From Candidatus Latescibacterota bacterium (GTDB lineage Bacteria > Latescibacterota > UBA2968), in NCBI GenBank assembly GCA_965204745.1, contig OZ242010.1:320001-384000 (forward strand): a DNA stretch of 64,000 bases, given 5' to 3'. Positions 9,942 through 62,981 of this stretch are shown here, in pieces. The translations under genes and the position numbers were made by a program. Under the pieces are notes generated by a model that did no database searches, was not told where the DNA came from, and worked only from the letters and a program-made list of their open reading frames with translations. Numbering within the stretch: the first letter of the stretch is position 1; each line of letters begins with the position of its first letter.

Positions 9942-11687
9942 TCACCGTCGCAGATCGAGTTGTGCTGCCCATGAGGATGTGCGATGGTGGCTGTAGCGCG
10001 TTGATAGGCGGACGTGCGCGTTTGCCCAAGCGATGCGGATGCCGCGATTGGCGCCATCTCCCGAAAGGGTGACGAGGCGCGTGCCGCCCCAGACGTCGGG
10101 TTCAAAGTCGTAGATGCGCGCATTGTAAGATGAGACTTTGTGGAGGGCGGTCCAAAGTGCGAGGGAAAAGCCCGTGGTTTTGCCGAGGGTGAGGCGAAGG
10201 CCCGCGGCATATCCCGCGAGGTCGGCGCGAGCGTGTTGAACCCAGGCGTTGACCGAACGGGTGGGGCGTTTGTACGCGAGTGCGACGCGCAGGCTTTGGC
10301 GGGTTGGGCGTCCCGTGGTGCTTCGGGTGTCACCGGTGAGGCGTGCGGAAAGCCCCGCGTTGAAGCGGTGGGTGAAGTTGAGGCGCAGGCGAACGCCGCG
10401 ATCTGGCAAGGCCCTGTTTTCCGGGATGAGCCGCCCGTGGCGGTCGAGGGCGATTTCGAGGCGTCTGCGTTTTGACAAACGCCACGTCAGGCCAAAGAAC
10501 ATGCCCCATTCGTTGTTCGGCGGCGTGCCATAAGCGGCATAGGGCGCGCCGTGCAGGCTGCGGAAGTCCGCGCCATAGCGTCTGCCAATGACGTGGAACC
10601 GCAGGATGGGTGTGCCCGCGACTAGGCCCGCGACAAAAGCACGGCGTGCGATTTCGCCAAACAAGGTGATGCGATGCGTGCGGTACAGGGCGTTGATCCC
10701 AAAGAGCGCGCCTGCCTGTGCTGTGCTCGGGGTGGCGACAGCTGATCCATTGGCGGGGGCAAAGGCCGCGTTGAGGCATGTCAAGCCGATGTGTTTTTGC
10801 GACGAGCCGATGCCCAAGTGCATACCTGCGAGGCGTTCGCGGAGTGCGTTTTTGCGCGCTTGCGAGGTTTCCGTGTCGTGGAGGCCGCTCGTGTAGATGC
10901 GCGTGCCCGAGGCGTCCCAAGTGATGTGTCCATACATCGCGTGCCAGAACGCGCGGCCGTGTGAACCGGACAGGTAGATGCCGCGCAAGGCGCCGTGTTC
11001 CGTGCTGGTGCGGTTGCCCGATTTTGTCGCGGAGCGGGCGCGTGCATAGCTCAGGCCGGTTGCAATGCGGGTGCGGCGCGAAAAGAGCAAGCCCTGCCCC
11101 CATTCCGGGCGCACGTCTCCCAAGATGAGGGTGACGCGGGAAAGGGGCACGGCGATATATCCGGTGACATGGTCCGTGAGGGTGGGTTCTCGGGGATCGC
11201 GCTCGGTGAGGAAAAAGGCGGAAATGCCCCAGGGCGAGGCGATTTCGAGTCGCTGGTACAGGCGCGTGTCGTCAAATTGGTTGGCGCGGTTGGCAGGGCG
11301 CGAGATGCGAGACGTGTACCGGGAACGCCACGGGCGCGTGGGCGCGATAGCGAGGTAGGGCGCGATCAGATCGATGTGTTCTGCGGACAGGCCCTGCACA
11401 TCGGCGAGGTCTTCGATGGCGCGATAGGGGCGTTGCGCGATGATCTGCTGGACGAGTTCCGGGGTCAGGCCGGGGAGCATGAGCAGGTCTTTCGCGCTCG
11501 CCCGATTGAGTTCCAGGCTGATGCCCTCGAGATCGCGCAACAAATCGTTGAACGCTTCGGCCTCGCTCTCGGTGTGGACAACGGGCACTTGGGCAAAGAG
11601 TATCGCGGGGATGCAAGAGGTGAACACCGTGTACCACGCGATTACGCGGATGTGAAAAATCCGTTCTAACATTGGGCGCGTTTGCAA
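9942..11687 (-). CDS. Helix-hairpin-helix (ComEA-like) domain protein with C-terminal predicted beta-barrel
   Basis: LELNRASAKDLLMLPGL...RPYRAIEDLADVQGL; WGQGLLF and SGLHDTETS motifs of the FCB-group HhH outer-membrane family. Confidence 0.75.
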   Translation of the reverse strand: MQTRPMLERIFHIRVIAWYTVFTSCIPAILFAQVPVVHTESEAEAFNDLLRDLEGISLELNRASAKDLLMLPGLTPELVQQIIAQRPYRAIEDLADVQGLSAEHIDLIAPYLAIAPTRPWRSRYTSRISRPANRANQFDDTRLYQRLEIASPWGISAFFLTERDPREPTLTDHVTGYIAVPLSRVTLILGDVRPEWGQGLLFSRRTRIATGLSYARARSATKSGNRTSTEHGALRGIYLSGSHGRAFWHAMYGHITWDASGTRIYTSGLHDTETSQARKNALRERLAGMHLGIGSSQKHIGLTCLNAAFAPANGSAVATPSTAQAGALFGINALYRTHRITLFGEIARRAFVAGLVAGTPILRFHVIGRRYGADFRSLHGAPYAAYGTPPNNEWGMFFGLTWRLSKRRRLEIALDRHGRLIPENRALPDRGVRLRLNFTHRFNAGLSARLTGDTRSTTGRPTRQSLRVALAYKRPTRSVNAWVQHARADLAGYAAGLRLTLGKTTGFSLALWTALHKVSSYNARIYDFEPDVWGGTRLVTLSGDGANRGIRIAWANAHVRLSTRYSHHRTSSWAAQLDLRR

Positions 11688-11851
11688 GATAAGGTTGTGG
11701 ATTTACAATGGGTTGCGTTATTTCCGCACCCTATCATAGCAAACGAAATGCCAATGGGGGATCGCCCAAAAAGGTGAGAGGTGAGACGCAAGACGGGAGA
11801 AGACCACCCCAAAAAGGTGAGAAGGCAGAGGCAAGATACTCTCTTAAAAGG

Positions 11852-12859
11852 TCAAGGGGTTTTCGGGGTGATTCGATAGAATTTTTCGCCCTCAAAATCT
11901 TGGTCATGGCGCAACATGCCCCAGATCGAATGGAGCAACTTTCGCATCACCGCAACGATAGCCTGCAAAGGTTTCTTGCCGCGGGCGATGAGTTGGTCAT
12001 AGAAGGCTTTGACATGGCCTTCGTGTCTGATGGCCACCCAGGCAGGCATATAGAGGGCATGGCGGAGGTACTTATTCCCGGTTTTCGAGATGCGTCTTTG
12101 TGGATTGGCGGTTCCGGATTGTTTGGGTTTGGGATCCAGGCCTGCATGTGCGACCCACTGGGGCGGTTGCATCTCCTCTGGCAAAAGGGTCAACTCGGCC
12201 AAGAGCCGCAAGGCACTCGTTTGCGCGATGCCAGGCGTCGAGCAGAGGCGTTGGTAGGCACGCTTGAGGGGCTCATCGTGCAAAACGAGATCGAGGGCTT
12301 GGCTTTCCAAGTATGCAATCCGGCGTTTGAAGTGTCGAATATTCACCTGAATATCGCGTGCGATGAGACGTGTGCTGCGGATGTGGTAGCTCTGCGCGTG
12401 GTTGCGGCTCTGTTCGCGGATGATCTCCTGCTTGAGTTGGTCAATGCGTCTGGTGAGGGCTTGCAGTTGAAGCCGTTGCTCGCTCGGCGCTTGCCAAGGC
12501 ACAAAAGGCATGCGCTCGGCATAGTCGAGGATCAACAACGCATCCTTCGCATCCGTCTTCGCCCGTTGCATGCAGGCTTGGGCGTACTTGCTCATCGCTT
12601 TGGGATTGACGACCATGACCTTTGTGTGGCGATGCCGATGCAAGGCCAAGGCCACCCCCAAACTGTAAAGCCCGGTCGCTTCGAGGCACACAGAGACCAT
12701 GTGCCCGCCCTTCGTGAGCCACTTCAGCAACCGCTTATGCGCTTGGGGATCATTGGCAAAGGTCGCTTGCATGACAGCTTGTCCGGGTCTGGACAGGGCA
12801 ACGGACAACGTGCGGGCACTGACATCAATGCCGGCAAAAGCGGGGTGAGATTTCGACAT
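11852..12859 (-). CDS. IS110-family transposase/recombinase
   Basis: DEDD motif GIDVS / CLEATG / KTDAKDA; C-terminal AGLDP..QSG..RISKTGNKYLRHALY and AVMRKL; AGGAGG RBS. Confidence 0.96.
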   Translation of the reverse strand: MSKSHPAFAGIDVSARTLSVALSRPGQAVMQATFANDPQAHKRLLKWLTKGGHMVSVCLEATGLYSLGVALALHRHRHTKVMVVNPKAMSKYAQACMQRAKTDAKDALLILDYAERMPFVPWQAPSEQRLQLQALTRRIDQLKQEIIREQSRNHAQSYHIRSTRLIARDIQVNIRHFKRRIAYLESQALDLVLHDEPLKRAYQRLCSTPGIAQTSALRLLAELTLLPEEMQPPQWVAHAGLDPKPKQSGTANPQRRISKTGNKYLRHALYMPAWVAIRHEGHVKAFYDQLIARGKKPLQAIVAVMRKLLHSIWGMLRHDQDFEGEKFYRITPKTP

Positions 12860-12899
12860 GGGGGCCTCCTGTGATGAGGGGGTTGTAAGGGATCTGGTG

Positions 12900-13100
12900 C
12901 GCGCTCGGGGTCGCGTCCCGACCATTGACGCCAAGTCTACCGGTCTTGTATATGCAGCCTCAAGGGGCTTAGATACTCTTCGGCATAGACCCGGCGGTCG
13001 GGGGGCCTATCTTACCTACAAGGTCATCGCCTTCAAGAGGGGCCGGCCTTCCCCGAGCCGGGCATCAAGATGGCTTATCTCGATACGAGGGCGCAACTCC
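12900..13100 (-). ncRNA. Putative IS110 bridge RNA (ends approximate)
   Basis: Two stem-loops with internal loops: target guides CCCCTCT (13036-13042) and GGTAAG (13011-13016); donor guides AGAGTATCT (12971-12979) and TACAAG (12945-12950) match the reconstructed junctions. Confidence 0.75.
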
Positions 13101-13146
13101 TAATTAACCCTTACTTCCAAGATACAAGAGGGGAGAAGACCACCCC

Positions 13147-13313
13147 TCTCCCCTCTTGCGTCTCCCCTCTTGCGTCTCCCCTCTTGCGTCTCCCCTCTTG
13201 CGTCTCCCCTCTTGCGTCTCCCCTCTTGCGTCTCCCCTCTTGCGTCTCCCCTCTTGCGTCTCCCCTCTTGCGTCTCCCCTCTTGCGTCTCCCCTCTTGCG
13301 TCTCCCCTCTTGC
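13147..13313 (+). repeat. Tandem array of the 14-mer TCTCCCCTCTTGCG (11 full copies plus 1 partial)
   Basis: Exact 14-bp periodicity, visible directly. Confidence 0.95.
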
Positions 13314-13354
13314 CTCTTGCCTCTCCCCCACCTCCGGCATACATTGCGTTTGAG

Positions 13355-14095
13355 ATGAATACATTTGACACCTACCGTGCTTTGATGAATAGGCTCGACC
13401 CGAATGGAGAACCTGTAGTGCGATTTGTGCAGCGGGTTCAAACCGCGCAACCGAGCGCGCATATCGGGGTACTCGATGCGTCCTTCAATCCGCTTACCCT
13501 CGCCCACGAGGCCCTGGTTCGCTATGCACAAGCCGCGTTTGGCTTTGATGAAATTGTGCTCCTGCTCGCCAAGGCCAATGTCGATAAAGCCCTGTTTGGA
13601 GCGGATTTGGGCCAGCGTCTCGGCCTGATGGCCCATTACGCGGATGCGGCCGATGACCTCTCTTTGTCGGTTGCGGGATGTAGCCATGCGCGCTTTATCG
13701 ACAAGGCGAGCGCGCTAAGGCCGCATTTTCCATCCGATGCCCAGTGCTACTTTCTCGTTGGGCACGACACCTTGATCCGCATTTTTGACCCGCGCTATTA
13801 CGCGGATATGTCCGCTGAACTCCACGCCTTGTTTTCCCTGTGCCATGTCGTATCTGCCAACCGCGCCCCCTTTGACCGAGAGGCTTTTCAGCGGTTTATG
13901 GCGCGTCCGGAATGCGTGCCATTTGCGGCCCGCGTCCATCCCCTCCAACTGCCCCCCTCCTTTGGCAACATCTCTTCCACATCGGTGCGTGACCGCATTG
14001 CAAAAGGCGCGTCTATCGCGGACCTCGTACCCCAATCGGTTGCCCAATTCATCGAGACATTCGGCCTTTACAAAAAACAAAAAAACGCTCCATAA
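13355..14095 (+). CDS. Nicotinate/nicotinamide-nucleotide adenylyltransferase-like protein (cytidylyltransferase fold)
   Basis: SFNPLTLAH, FLVGHDT, ISSTSVR...GLY motifs; start moved to MNTFDTY, since the upstream extension is the 14-mer array. Confidence 0.8.
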   Translation: MNTFDTYRALMNRLDPNGEPVVRFVQRVQTAQPSAHIGVLDASFNPLTLAHEALVRYAQAAFGFDEIVLLLAKANVDKALFGADLGQRLGLMAHYADAADDLSLSVAGCSHARFIDKASALRPHFPSDAQCYFLVGHDTLIRIFDPRYYADMSAELHALFSLCHVVSANRAPFDREAFQRFMARPECVPFAARVHPLQLPPSFGNISSTSVRDRIAKGASIADLVPQSVAQFIETFGLYKKQKNAP

Positions 14096-16220: not shown

Positions 16221-16392
16221 CAATAAATGGATTCAACGCTTTATTCGCATTGACAACTGATTGCTTGAACGGTTGGGCGTTGGGCGGCCCTCTTGCCTCT
16301 CCCCTCTTGCCTCTCCCCTCTTGCCTCTTGCCTCTTGCTTCTTGCCGCCTTATATGGTTGCCTTTGCCTTCCCGCAGGGGTATCTTGGCGCC

Positions 16393-19655: not shown

Positions 19656-19780
19656 CTCACAGTTCCCCCCTTGTATCTTAGGGCGAGCACGGGTGCATCG
19701 CCCCTTTGGAGGGGTGGAAGGGTGGGGACTGACAACTGACAACTGACAACTGACAACTGACAACTGCATCTCACCTCGTT

Positions 19781-27567: not shown

Positions 27568-27721
27568 TCAGGCGAGCACGGGGACATCGCCCCTACGTTT
27601 CTATCCTTGCCTCTCGCCTCTCGCCTCTTACTTCTTGCCTCTTACCGAAGGGCGGTTAGGCGGGGCGGACTGACAACTGACAACTGACAACTGACAACTG
27701 ACAACTGACAACTGCCTCTCT

Positions 27722-50399: not shown

Positions 50400-50681
50400 A
50401 CGGCAGTTGTCAGTTGTCAGTTGTCAGTTGTCAGTCCCCGCCCAACCCCCTTCGGTAAGAGGGGAGACGGGAGACGGGAGAGGGGAGAGGGTGGTCGCAC
50501 TATCCCGCTCAAGTCGTCAGTAGCCAGTAGGTCGGTCAGCCCACCTATCTCCAAGTTCCCGTAGGGACAGGCCCCTGTGCATGTTCTCAACACCGACCTC
50601 AAGTGGTCAGTCGTCAGTCCCACCCATCCCAACCATGCACCGTGCCTGCGCGTCAGTCAGGATCCCATTCGTCTCGTTGCC

Positions 50682-54673: not shown

Positions 54674-55027
54674 GGTCGCTCTGACGGCGTTGACCGAGGG
54701 GACCTATCCCCCGGCCCCGTTATTCGCTTCGCTCATTGTAGGCTACGCCTGTGCCTACGAGGAAAGGGGAGTAAAGTTCCTTTGATGGCTTCTCGCTCTG
54801 GTCGCTCTGACGGCGTTGACCGAGGGGACCTATCCCCCGGCCCCGTTATTCGCTTCGCTCATTGTAGGCTACGCCTGTGCCTACAAGGAAAGGGGAGTAA
54901 AGCTCTTTTGGTGGCTTTGGGCGAATGGATCACGCCATAGAACCCAAAAAACCTCTCGAGCAATCCCTCGGAAGACCCATCACCGTTCCCCCTTCCTCTT
55001 AGGAAGGGGGTTAGAGGGTAGGTCCCC
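54674..55027. repeat. Tandem ~103-bp duplication (54674-54776, 54800-54902) merging into a family C MITE
   Basis: Two near-identical GGTCGCTCTGACGGCGTTGACCGAGGGGACCTATCC...GGAGTAAAG units. Confidence 0.85.
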
Positions 55028-62509: not shown

Positions 62510-62981
62510 AAAAAAATTCCGGTTTGCTCGACCATCGGTCAAGCGTTTGACAACTGATTGTGCAAGATAAACATTTTTGGCGTAAAAGTCCTGTTAATTT
62601 TTTTCAAACGCAGAATCGATTTGTACCCTGTTCTGCACATTCAAGCGAGCACGGGGGCACCGCCCCTACACATATCGCTCGCCTTTGAATGGGCTGTCGC
62701 CATGTACCCCTTTTGTGCCTTTGAATGGGCTGTCGCCAGTTGTACCCCGCTCGTGGCTAAAATCCCTCTCCCATCTCGCCTCTTACCTCTTGTATCTTTG
62801 GACGATCATTACATCTGCGCCCTCTACATGATCTGCGACCCGCCTTTGGGCGGCGATGGGCGGGGACTGACCACTGACTACTGACTACTGACCACTGGCG
62901 GTTGGGCGGGGCGGTCTCGCCTCTCGCCTCTCGCCTCTCCCGTCTCACCGAAGGGCGGTGGCGGAGCGGCGATCTCGCCTT

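What the first reader, a model, noticed from the sequence alone, without database searches (positions are those of the whole stretch)
11834..13128. IS110 with a fully decodable bridge RNA that targets the host's own intergenic repeats
Seen in sequence: on the minus strand the element is bounded by a CT core (13127-13128 and 11834-11835). The reconstructed donor (circle junction) is AGAGTAT-CT-TGTA and the reconstructed target is CTCCCCT-CT-TGCC. The 5' non-coding region has two stem-loops. The 3' loop carries AGAGTATCT and TACAAG, exact matches to the donor left arm and right-arm complement. The 5' loop carries CCCCTCT and GGTAAG, matching the target with one G-U wobble. Established: IS110 bridge RNAs encode target and donor guides in this layout (IS621 paradigm). 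Inference: this is a natural programmable recombinase with a readable guide, aimed at the CCCCTCTT(A/G)CC motif common in this genome's repeats, and so a candidate new bridge-recombinase tool.
Basis: partly seen in the sequence, partly recalled or inferred. Interest (0 to 1): 0.85.

Follow-up and report, generated by a model that had tools for sequence, protein, structure and literature searches.

The report
Bridge-RNA IS110 element targeting heptamer repeats
This is a real, recently active IS110-type jumping gene whose own guide RNA spells out both its ends and the short repeat motif it inserts into, a clean natural example of an already known mechanism rather than a new one.

Summary
Window 11834-13128 (minus strand) is a 1295-bp IS110-group element. 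It has a 335-aa DEDD+Ser recombinase (NCBIfam "IS110 family RNA-guided transposase"; nearest solved structures ISCro4 and IS621) and a 5' non-coding RNA with two internal loops. The donor loop matches the element's joined ends. The target loop (CCCCUCU / GGUAAG) matches the flanks.

The genome holds 52 full-length copies, 30 of them identical. In 44 of 52, all nine guide-specified flank positions pair with the copy's own guide. Perfect Watson-Crick sites (CCCCT-CT-TACC) are occupied 20 of 36 times. G-U wobble sites (TGCC) are occupied 18 of 86 times. Abundant near-cognate repeat units are not used by the main guide class, apart from four copies in TACCT sites.

Guide and target change together across co-resident subfamilies and across relatives in two other same-genus genomes, while the donor loop stays constant. 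A consensus fold of 22 distinct sequences places all guides in internal loops, with compensatory changes in the stems.

RNA expression, circle formation and recombination were not observable. This is a new member of a known kind. The more unusual points are a target made of heptamer tandem arrays, guide diversification within one genome, and a transposase-less mini-element whose variant target loop matches two otherwise misplaced copies.

The parts
11834..13128 (-). Whole IS110-group element, 1295 bp including a CT core at each end (net insertion 1293 bp)
   Evidence: 52 full-length copies in the genome with identical ends and unrelated outer flanks
13127..13128 (-). Left copy of the CT core
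   Evidence: subfamily v5 has CT|C on the right and CT|T on the left, which fixes the core as CT
11834..11835 (-). Right copy of the CT core
13129..13133 (-). Left target half CCCCT (flank), paired by the left target guide
   Evidence: 41 of 45 copies with this guide have CCCCT here
11830..11833 (-). Right target half TGCC (flank), paired by GGUAAG with one G-U wobble
13119..13124 (-). -10-like TATCTT in the left end; a promoter is completed only on the circle (inferred)
   Evidence: read from sequence; spacing to the right-end TTGACC is 18 nt in the main family and 17 nt in the 96% subfamily and both relatives
13062..13086 (-). 5' stem-loop (10-bp stem, loop AAGCC)
   Evidence: single-sequence fold; not conserved in group B relatives
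12998..13057 (-). Target-binding module: basal stem, internal loop and inner stem-loop
   Evidence: consensus fold and pair counts
13035..13042 (-). Left target guide CCCCUCU(U): five left-target bases, the core, and position +1
   Evidence: changes together with the flanks across subfamilies
13011..13016 (-). Right target guide GGUAAG, the complement of CT-TACC
   Evidence: occupancy 20/36 for the Watson-Crick site against 18/86 for the wobble site
13009..13010 (-). AU after the right target guide; handshake-guide equivalent, complementary to donor positions 6-7 (A, T)
   Evidence: sequence reading against the description of IS621 A81/U82 in PMC11208158
12930..12995 (-). Donor-binding module: basal stem with compensatory changes, internal loop and inner stem-loop
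   Evidence: pair 114:180 is GC in 13 rows and AU in 8
12971..12979 (-). Left donor guide AGAGUAUCU, identical to the last nine bases of the element
12945..12951 (-). Right donor guide AUACAAG, the complement of the first seven bases of the element (CTTGTAT)
12865..12870 (-). AGGAGG ribosome-binding site
11852..12859 (-). 335-aa recombinase ORF (PF01548 + PF02371; D12, E60, D103, D106, S248-G249)
11850..11855 (-). -35-like TTGACC overlapping the stop codon, 16 nt from the right end
   Evidence: inferred to be half of a junction promoter
13147..13317 (+). Host array next to the insertion: 12.2 copies of a 14-nt unit (two heptamers)

Best explanation
This is an autonomous IS110-group insertion sequence that moves by bridge-RNA-guided recombination, like IS621. 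Its left end encodes an RNA of roughly 180 nt with two internal loops.

[quoted passage not shown] The target loop pairs with an 11-bp host site, CCCCT-CT-TACC: CCCCUCU with the bottom strand and GGUAAG with the top strand. The U in GGUAAG also lets it accept TGCC through a G-U wobble.

The DEDD+Ser recombinase exchanges strands at the CT core, which leaves one CT at each end of the inserted element. The site is one particular unit junction inside the host's CCTCTYR heptamer arrays, so the element has many safe, mostly non-coding landing places. It has multiplied to 52 full copies, 30 of them identical.

Shown here: anatomy, copy number, exact ends, guide-flank complementarity, its covariation, the RNA structure, and the catalytic residues. 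Inferred: RNA expression from a promoter completed on the circle (TTGACC, 17-18 nt, TATCTT), circle formation, and the strand-exchange chemistry. These are taken from IS621 (PMC11208160 and PMC11208158, passages read).
For: Protein. Pfam gives PF01548 (E 1.2e-24) and PF02371 (E 4.8e-20). NCBIfam NF033542 'IS110 family RNA-guided transposase' scores 213.8 bits against a cut-off of 140. PDB hits are ISCro4 9t56 (E 7.6e-40) and IS621 8wt6 (E 5.8e-36). D12, E60, D103, D106 and S248-G249 align to IS621 D11, E60, D102, D105 and S241-G242 (residue names). 51 of 52 genomic copies keep the 335-aa frame, and all 51 keep these residues.

Copies. There are 52 full-length copies: 30 at 100%, 37 at 99% or more, 8 at 96.1%, 2 at about 95%, and 5 at 88.5-89.1%.

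Guides against flanks. In 44 of 52 copies, all nine positions (-5 to -1 and +1 to +4) pair with the copy's own guide by Watson-Crick or wobble pairing.

Natural specificity. After CCCCT-CT, the free/occupied counts are TACC 16/20, TGCC 68/18, TGCG 42/0, TACG 20/0 and CACC 15/0. Before CT-TRCC they are CCCCT 84/38, TGCCT 297/0, CACCT 120/0 and TACCT 151/4. Watson-Crick against wobble occupancy gives an odds ratio of 4.7, p = 4.6e-4.

Covariation. Variant v5 carries UCCCUCUC / GGUGAG and sits in TCCCT-CT-CACC. The 89% subfamily carries CGCCUCU / AGUAAG and sits in CGCCT-CT-TACT. Group B relatives carry CUCGCCUCU / GGGAG and sit in CTCGCCT-CT-CCCG (14 of 18 have CCCG). Group A relatives carry UCCUCCU / GAAAAG and have TTTC on the right in 6 of 7 copies. 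Across 11 guide classes, 0 of 200,000 relabelings reached the observed own-guide score of 89.2 out of 99. Both donor guides are identical in 51 of 52 own copies. In the 25 relatives the left donor guide is unchanged and the right donor guide's core-pairing ACAAG is kept.

Structure. In the RNAalifold consensus of 22 distinct sequences the guides lie in internal loops. For my 31-pair structure, 97.9% of cells pair, and 6 pairs (17 cells) show changes on both sides. 0 of 500 shuffles reached this, and slid controls gave 28-51% pairing.
Against: There is no direct evidence of RNA, circle or recombination. No RNA run was available, only assembled contigs could be laid, and no circle junction appeared (see Tried and rejected). 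Rfam 15 has no family that matches. The single-sequence fold is only modestly better than shuffles (z = -2.26; 7 of 200 shuffles fold as well), and it pairs the two target guides with each other.

Eight of 52 copies do not fully fit their own guide:
- four sit in TACCT-CT-TACC;
- two sit in CCCCT-CT-CCCG;
- one has a +4 mismatch;
- one (v6) sits in a v5-type site.

The second base of the donor-loop handshake position does not pair with the target (sequence reading). The alignment sequences are close kin from one genus plus one distant relative, so shuffle controls overstate independence.
Confidence: 0.9

Rival explanations
1. It is a fossil. The elements were bridge-RNA guided when they spread, but they are now silent or inactive in this host, so the readable guide only records past activity.
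For: No expression or circle evidence could be obtained. About 15 truncated or degraded copies exist. One full copy has a broken frame (262 aa), and one has a 1-nt insertion in the left-end donor arm.
Against: 30 copies are 100% identical over 1295 bp. 51 of 52 keep the full ORF with all catalytic residues. Sixteen perfect and 68 wobble sites remain free, so spread is not saturated. In contigs of different coded runs, the depth of IS unitigs relative to flank contigs ranges from about 4-5 fold to about 20-25 fold. That would fit ongoing copy-number change, but the tool warns that depth is not copy number.
Confidence: 0.1
2. Site choice is made by the protein recognising the repeat DNA, or a hairpin in it. 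On this view the RNA-flank complementarity is a by-product of the element carrying repeat-like sequence.
For: A published IS110 (ISPpu10) uses a target stem-loop as a second determinant (preprint 10.64898/2026.03.19.712850, abstract read). The window copy and about a dozen others lie directly 3' of a hairpin loop.
Against: Guide and flank change together at individual positions in at least six guide classes, while the recombinases remain 76-100% identical. Occupied sites are no more structured than free sites: the target is at least 70% paired in 6 of 45 occupied and 15 of 84 free sites, p = 0.43. The wobble site is used less than the Watson-Crick site.
Confidence: 0.03
3. It belongs to the IS1111 group, whose guide (seekRNA) lies 3' of the transposase gene. 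On this view the 5' matches are not the functional guide.
For: The protein domains are shared by both groups.
Against: Only 17 nt lie between the stop codon and the right end, so there is no room for a 3' RNA. All four guide words and both structured modules lie in the 269-nt 5' leader.
Confidence: 0.01

Closest known systems
IS621 (E. coli), the IS110-group bridge recombinase and bridge RNA (PMC11208160, PMC11208158; PDB 8wt6)
   Same: Same two-domain recombinase with the DEDD + Ser-Gly active site (E 5.8e-36). Same RNA plan: an optional 5' stem-loop, then a target module, then a donor module, each built as stem, guide, stem-loop, guide. Same strand logic: left guides equal the top strand, right guides are its complement, and both include the core. 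Same CT core. Same AU handshake dinucleotide after the right target guide, matching donor A6/T7. An rG:dT-type wobble is tolerated at a natural target position. The target is a repeated host sequence.
   Different: The 11 specified target bases are split 5+2+4 rather than 7+2+2, so the right target guide is naturally longer. The target is a unit junction in heptamer tandem arrays, not a REP palindrome. There are 52 full copies in one genome. The host is an uncultured Latescibacterota-type bacterium found in runs labelled sponge metagenome. Protein similarity is limited, at roughly one third identical by eye in the alignment.
ISCro4 transposase (PDB 9t56)
   Same: Best-scoring solved relative (E 7.6e-40, 140 bits, residues 7-326 aligned). 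Same catalytic motifs.
   Different: A distant orthologue from an enterobacterial element. Nothing about its RNA or target was compared here.
ISPpu9 / ISPpu10 of Pseudomonas putida (PMC12288879 and preprint 10.64898/2026.03.19.712850; abstracts only)
   Same: IS110-family elements present in several copies, all inserted into one conserved repeated intergenic sequence of the host.
   Different: Those targets are REP-type or stem-loop-bearing sequences, and for ISPpu10 the stem-loop itself is reported as a specificity determinant. No such structural preference was detectable here.

Membership tests
IS110 family, IS110 group (bridge-RNA-guided recombinases, IS621 type) | N-terminal RuvC-like DEDD domain plus C-terminal Tnp domain | tested here: met
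   PF01548 residues 9-154 and PF02371 residues 203-287. NF033542 scores 213.8 bits against a cut-off of 140.
IS110 family, IS110 group (bridge-RNA-guided recombinases, IS621 type) | Catalytic D, E, D, D and Ser(-Gly) residues (IS621 D11, E60, D102, D105, S241-G242) | tested here: met
   D12, E60, D103, D106 and S248-G249 align in the phmmer alignment to 8wt6. They are present in all 51 intact copies of this genome.
IS110 family, IS110 group (bridge-RNA-guided recombinases, IS621 type) | No terminal inverted repeats, and only a 2-bp core present at both ends | tested here: met
   CT lies at both ends of 52 of 52 copies. The ends CTTGTATC... and ...AGAGTATCT are not inverted repeats of each other.
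IS110 family, IS110 group (bridge-RNA-guided recombinases, IS621 type) | Structured non-coding RNA in the left end, 5' of the gene, with two internal loops | tested here: met
   Consensus fold of 22 distinct sequences. For 31 pairs, 97.9% of cells pair and 6 pairs show changes on both sides; 0 of 500 shuffles reach this.
IS110 family, IS110 group (bridge-RNA-guided recombinases, IS621 type) | The first loop pairs with the target: left guide equals the top strand, right guide is its complement, and both include the core | tested here: met
   44 of 52 copies pair at all nine positions. Site-occupancy profile. Covariation across 11 guide classes, with 0 of 200,000 relabelings reaching the observed score.
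IS110 family, IS110 group (bridge-RNA-guided recombinases, IS621 type) | The second loop pairs with the joined right and left ends (donor) | tested here: met
   AGAGUAUCU equals the last 9 nt, and AUACAAG is the complement of the first 7 nt. A 9-mer match is expected in 0.04% of shuffles.
IS110 family, IS110 group (bridge-RNA-guided recombinases, IS621 type) | Handshake guides 3' of the right guides pair with positions 6-7 of the other DNA | tested here: inconclusive
   In the target loop, AU fits donor A6/T7 fully. In the donor loop (AC), only the first base fits target T7. That first base is G in group A, where target position 7 is C. Definition taken.
IS110 family, IS110 group (bridge-RNA-guided recombinases, IS621 type) | A promoter is completed at the RE-LE junction of the circle | tested here: inconclusive
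   Motif reading only: TTGACC 16 nt from the right end, and TATCTT at positions 5-10 of the left end, giving a spacer of 18 nt or 17 nt. No sigma-70-like site lies upstream of the RNA in the integrated copy.
IS110 family, IS110 group (bridge-RNA-guided recombinases, IS621 type) | Expressed bridge RNA, circular intermediate, and RNA-programmable recombination | not testable with these tools
   Only contigs of public runs were available.
IS110 family, IS1111 group (3' seekRNA) | Guide RNA encoded in a long non-coding region 3' of the transposase gene | tested here: not met
   Only 17 nt follow the stop codon. The guides are in the 5' leader.
Rfam RNA families | Match to a curated covariance model | tested here: not met
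   No family reaches its gathering score. The only hits at E up to 10 are weak miRNA-type matches to the flanking hairpin and unrelated small RNAs.

The most novel reading that the evidence does not exclude
Several IS110 lineages share this genome. They use one donor code but carry at least six different target loops, and they may guide each other in trans.

In IS621 the target loop and donor loop of one synaptic complex come from two different RNA molecules, and separate loops work in vitro (PMC11208158). Any co-resident target loop could therefore send any copy's circle to its own site.

A roughly 190-bp transposase-less mini-element (G000:C1:2972659 onward) keeps an intact target module with a variant right guide, CGGGAG. 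That guide predicts CCCCT-CT-CCCG, which is exactly the site of the two main-family copies that do not fit their own guide. Copy v6 likewise sits in a site that fits v5's guide exactly.

If this is right, the mini-element acts as a natural stand-alone 'target adaptor', and the set of guides in the genome, rather than each copy's own guide, decides where copies land.
Probability: 0.25. Interest if true: 0.6.

Novelty: new member of a known kind. Interest (0 to 1): 0.42.

Why it matters
It is an unusually clean natural data set for a mechanism known mainly from IS621. One closed genome holds 52 copies, a census of free and occupied sites, a measurable penalty for a single G-U wobble, and strict avoidance of near-cognate repeat units. 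Several guide variants have moved to neighbouring repeat units while the donor code stayed fixed.

That gives a natural specificity profile for a bridge recombinase with a 5+2+4 target split and a naturally long right target guide. Durrant et al. found that lengthening the right target guide improved specificity (PMC11208160).

The 30 identical copies suggest an efficient enzyme, so this is a reasonable orthologue to add to tool screens. It also shows that heptamer microsatellite arrays, not only REP elements, can serve as landing pads for IS110 elements.

Tried and rejected
Rfam 15 search of 11500-13500 at E up to 10. I used a consensus fold of relatives instead.

Single-sequence fold. MFE is -103 kcal/mol with z = -2.26, and 7 of 200 shuffles fold as well. 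The fold pairs the left and right target guides with each other, so it is not decisive alone.

Promoter scan of the integrated copy. One sigma-70-like site was found, inside the ORF, against 0.6 expected. None lies upstream of the RNA.

Public runs. No RNA holder was listed and only Logan contigs could be laid. No 'goes back' joint at the element ends (circle junction) was seen. One X1 contig joins 11831 to 13125, skipping 1293 nt with a 5-nt ambiguity. That is the size of a precise empty site, but its shorter side is only 25 nt and lies in repeats, so I do not count it as evidence. The depth ratios of IS to flank contigs are quoted only as a hint.

Hairpin preference of the target. Occupied sites are no more structured than free sites.

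Term searches in PMC11208158 for 'split' and 'in trans' found nothing. The relevant passage was found with other terms.

Papers. No paper holds both 'Latescibacter' and 'IS110'. A search for IS110 with heptanucleotide or tandem repeat found nothing on this kind of target (10 of 136 listed). Supplements are closed, so I could not check whether Supplementary Data 2 of Durrant et al., their catalogue of natural IS110 guides and targets, already lists this element or its relatives.

IS-driven growth of the heptamer arrays was considered. (CCTCTYR)3 occurs 551 times in this genome and 252 times in G018. These are the two genomes whose IS copies sit in such arrays. It occurs 0-4 times in each of the other 29 genomes searched. 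However, a second heptamer family that the IS does not target, (ACTGACM)3, is just as lineage-specific: 704 here, 46 and 41 in two other genomes, and 0 in G018. A host process that makes arrays, with the IS exploiting one type, is therefore the simpler reading.

For the misfit copies there are two further explanations besides trans guiding. One is half-match off-target insertion (preprint 10.64898/2026.08.31.748434, abstract only). The other, for v6, is later recombination between subfamilies: its leader is a mosaic of 89%-type and 96%-type positions. Neither can be excluded.
Full report
**What is there.**
On the minus strand of window 11834-13128 lies a 1295-bp element. It starts CT-TGTATC and ends AGAGTAT-CT. 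It has a 269-nt leader, an AGGAGG ribosome-binding site, a 335-aa ORF (12859-11852), and only 17 nt after the stop codon. The protein has the two IS110 domains, PF01548 and PF02371. It passes NCBIfam NF033542, 'IS110 family RNA-guided transposase', at 213.8 bits against a cut-off of 140.

Its nearest solved structures are the ISCro4 transposase (9t56, E 7.6e-40) and the IS621 transposase (8wt6, E 5.8e-36). In the printed alignment, D12, E60, D103, D106 and S248-G249 stand opposite IS621 D11, E60, D102, D105 and S241-G242. The IS621 residue roles come from PMC11208158 passages.

The window copy lies between two divergently oriented genes: a helix-hairpin-helix protein and a cytidylyltransferase-like protein.

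**Checking the observation.**

| Guide | Word | Window coordinates |
|---|---|---|
| Left target guide | CCCCTCT(T) | 13035-13042 |
| Right target guide | GGTAAG | 13011-13016 |
| Left donor guide | AGAGTATCT | 12971-12979 |
| Right donor guide | (A)TACAAG | 12945-12951 |

None of 200,000 shuffles of the leader carried all four words, and the product of the single frequencies is 6e-8.

**Copies and ends.**
The window's genome is one 5.48-Mb contig. It holds 68 blastn segments of the element, of which 52 are full length:

| Identity to the window copy | Copies |
|---|---|
| 100% | 30 |
| 99.1-99.9% | 7 |
| 96.1% | 8 |
| 95.8% and 94.8% | 1 each |
| 88.5-89.1% | 5 |

All 52 begin and end at the same bases, and similarity stops there. 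51 of 52 keep the 335-aa frame with all catalytic residues. The core is CT rather than CTT, because variant v5 has CT|C on its right side.

**Guide against flank.**
I extracted the two target guides from every copy and scored them against that copy's own flanks at positions -5 to -1 and +1 to +4. For the 45 copies that carry the window's guide:

- The left flank is CCCCT in 41 and TACCT in 4.
- The right flank is TACC in 24, TGCC in 18, CCCG in 2 and TACT in 1.

Over all 52 copies, 44 pair at all nine positions, by Watson-Crick or wobble pairing. Positions -6 and -7 face two G residues that cannot pair. The guide therefore specifies 5+2+4 bases, not the 7+2+2 of IS621.

**A natural specificity profile.**
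Counting free sites on both strands of the genome gives the following.

After CCCCT-CT:

| Right half | Free | Occupied |
|---|---|---|
| TACC | 16 | 20 |
| TGCC | 68 | 18 |
| TGCG | 42 | 0 |
| TACG | 20 | 0 |
| CACC | 15 | 0 |

Before CT-TRCC:

| Left half | Free | Occupied |
|---|---|---|
| CCCCT | 84 | 38 |
| TGCCT | 297 | 0 |
| CACCT | 120 | 0 |
| CGCCT | 64 | 0 |
| TACCT | 151 | 4 |

The perfect site is filled 20 of 36 times and the wobble site 18 of 86 times (odds ratio 4.7, p = 4.6e-4). This is what RNA-DNA pairing predicts. A general liking for the repeats would not predict it.

**Covariation.**
The leader exists in 10 versions among the full copies. Relatives with 76-84% identical proteins occur in two named Latescibacterota chromosomes, and a 48% relative occurs in a Gemmatimonadota contig. 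Guide and flank change together:

| Class | Left guide / right guide | Site |
|---|---|---|
| v5 | UCCCUCUC / GGUGAG | TCCCT-CT-CACC |
| 89% subfamily | CGCCUCU / AGUAAG | CGCCT-CT-TACT (2 exact, 1 wobble, 1 with a +4 mismatch) |
| v8 | UGCCUCU / AGUAAG | TACCT-CT-TACT (one rG:dT) |
| Group B (18 copies) | CUCGCCUCU / GGGAG | (C)TC(G/A)CCT-CT-CCCG; right half CCCG in 14 of 18 |
| Group A (7 copies) | UCCUCCU or UCCCCCU / GAAAAG | right half TTTC in 6 of 7 |

Degraded copies of an older subfamily carry CCCCCCU-type left guides and sit after TTCCCC.

Over 11 guide classes, the own-guide score was 89.2 of 99, and no relabeling out of 200,000 reached it. The classes are kin, so this overstates independence. 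Both donor guides are identical in 51 of 52 own copies. In the 25 relatives the left donor guide is unchanged, and the right donor guide keeps its core-pairing ACAAG. The ends (CTTGTATC......AGAGTATCT) are conserved too.

**RNA structure.**
An alignment of 22 distinct leader sequences gives an RNAalifold consensus with two modules. Each has a basal stem, a 5' loop strand, an inner stem-loop and a 3' loop strand. All four guides lie in the loop strands.

For a 31-pair structure that leaves out guide-guide pairs, 97.9% of 681 cells pair, and 6 pairs (17 cells) change on both sides. 0 of 500 shuffles reached these values, and sliding the partners by 1-3 columns gave 28-51% pairing. Most of the covariation is in the donor-module basal stem. 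The target-module stems are nearly invariant and so say little on their own.

The dinucleotide after the right target guide is AU, complementary to donor positions 6-7 (A, T). This matches IS621's A81/U82 handshake guide. The equivalent in the donor loop fits only at its first base.

**Mechanism.**
The anatomy matches IS621 point for point, so the published mechanism is the best explanation. It is not shown here. The steps are:

- The element forms a circle joined at one CT.
- The donor loop holds this junction and the target loop holds CCCCT-CT-TACC.
- The tetrameric recombinase cleaves after the core through a phosphoserine intermediate and exchanges strands (PMC11208160 and PMC11208158, passages).

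A -35-like TTGACC lies 16 nt from the right end, and a -10-like TATCTT lies at positions 5-10 of the left end. They would form a promoter only on the circle, with a spacer of 18 nt, or 17 nt in the 96% subfamily and both groups of relatives. This is a motif reading only.

Recent preprints argue for copy-out-paste-in transposition in this family (abstract and passages only). That would fit 30 identical copies.

**The target repeats.**
The genome carries 606 period-7 tandem arrays in two families, CCTCTYR-like and ACTGACM-like. Several of them lie in the window. The target is the junction of a CCCCTCT unit with a TACCTCT or TGCCTCT unit.

40 of 52 copies have a flank with 7-nt periodicity above the 99th percentile of random 28-mers. 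Only 11 of 52 sites lie in a frame that stays open for 60 codons on both sides, against 1506 of 2000 random positions.

Among 31 related genomes searched, the element's DNA was found in 4, three of them among the 19 of this genus. CCTCTYR arrays are abundant only here (551 matches) and in G018 (252 matches), which is the group B host. G016, the group A host, has no such arrays, and its elements carry a different guide. The untargeted ACTGACM arrays are also lineage-specific. I therefore read the arrays as a host feature that the element exploits.

**Misfits and the boldest reading.**
Eight copies do not fully fit their own guide. Two main-family copies sit in CCCCT-CT-CCCG. The genome's only other intact target module (54 found, 52 of them in full copies) lies in a ~190-bp mini-element. 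This mini-element keeps the left end, the target module and half of the donor module, and then jumps to the last six bases of the right end. Its right guide, CGGGAG, predicts exactly CCCCT-CT-CCCG.

Copy v6 sits in a site that fits v5's guide. In IS621 the two loops of one synapse come from different RNA molecules, and separate loops work in vitro, so trans guiding is mechanistically possible. Half-match off-targeting and, for v6, later recombination between subfamilies are equally open.

**Verdict.**
This is a new member of a known kind. Its value is as a natural specificity data set and as a candidate orthologue for tool screens.

Noticed in passing
window 13147-13317, 16289-16346, 19728-19766, 27669-27714, 50458-50491, 62915-62939 and genome-wide: The genome is littered with heptamer tandem arrays of two families, CCTCTYR-like and ACTGACM-like. 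There are 606 period-7 arrays genome-wide. Each family is abundant in only a few genomes of the genus. (CCTCTYR)3 occurs 551 times here, 252 times in G018, and 0-4 times elsewhere. (ACTGACM)3 occurs 704 times here, 46 and 41 times in two others, and 0 times in G018. What generates them is unexplained.
   Followed up: partly
G000:C1:2972659-2972850 (L068:260-450): A transposase-less mini-element of about 190 bp. It has the left end, an intact target module with a variant right guide (CGGGAG), and the 5' half of the donor module, then the last six bases of the right end. Its predicted site, CCCCT-CT-CCCG, is where two misfit full-length copies sit (G000:C1:1927368 and 5150716).
   Followed up: partly
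G000:C1:921770, 1263485, 1433016, 845255 (fragments): Degraded copies of an older subfamily (88-91% identical). Their left guide is of the CCCCCCU type and their right guide is CAGGAAG. Three of the four sit after TTCCCC; the copy at 845255 carries CGGGAG and its flank does not match. Eight of the eleven fragments examined keep the left end, and only one keeps the right end.
   Followed up: partly
G000:C1:1121591-1124182 (L065): Two copies (one 100% and one 96% identical to the window copy) lie head to tail, five bases apart. The younger copy is inserted into the perfect site one heptamer upstream of the older copy, which itself sits in a TACCT-CT-TACC site.
   Followed up: partly
L050-L054 (OZ251458.1): Five copies in a related genome carry N instead of D at the fourth DEDD position (equivalent to IS621 D105), although the frame is intact. 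They are possibly inactive copies that rely on active ones.
   Followed up: no
G000:C1:3890249 and 5198949: One near-identical copy has a frame cut to 262 aa. Another has a 1-nt insertion in the first bases of the left end (CTTGCTATC), which would disturb pairing with the right donor guide.
   Followed up: no
window 54674-54917: A 126-bp unit repeated 1.9 times (96% match), unrelated to the heptamer arrays.
   Followed up: no
window 11000-14000 in coded runs X1, X3, X4, X10: The flanks and the element occur in contigs of runs from several studies, some labelled sponge metagenome. The depth of IS unitigs relative to flank contigs differs widely between runs: about 20-25 fold in X1 and about 4-5 fold in X4. 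This may reflect different copy numbers in different populations, but the tool warns that depth is not copy number.
   Followed up: partly
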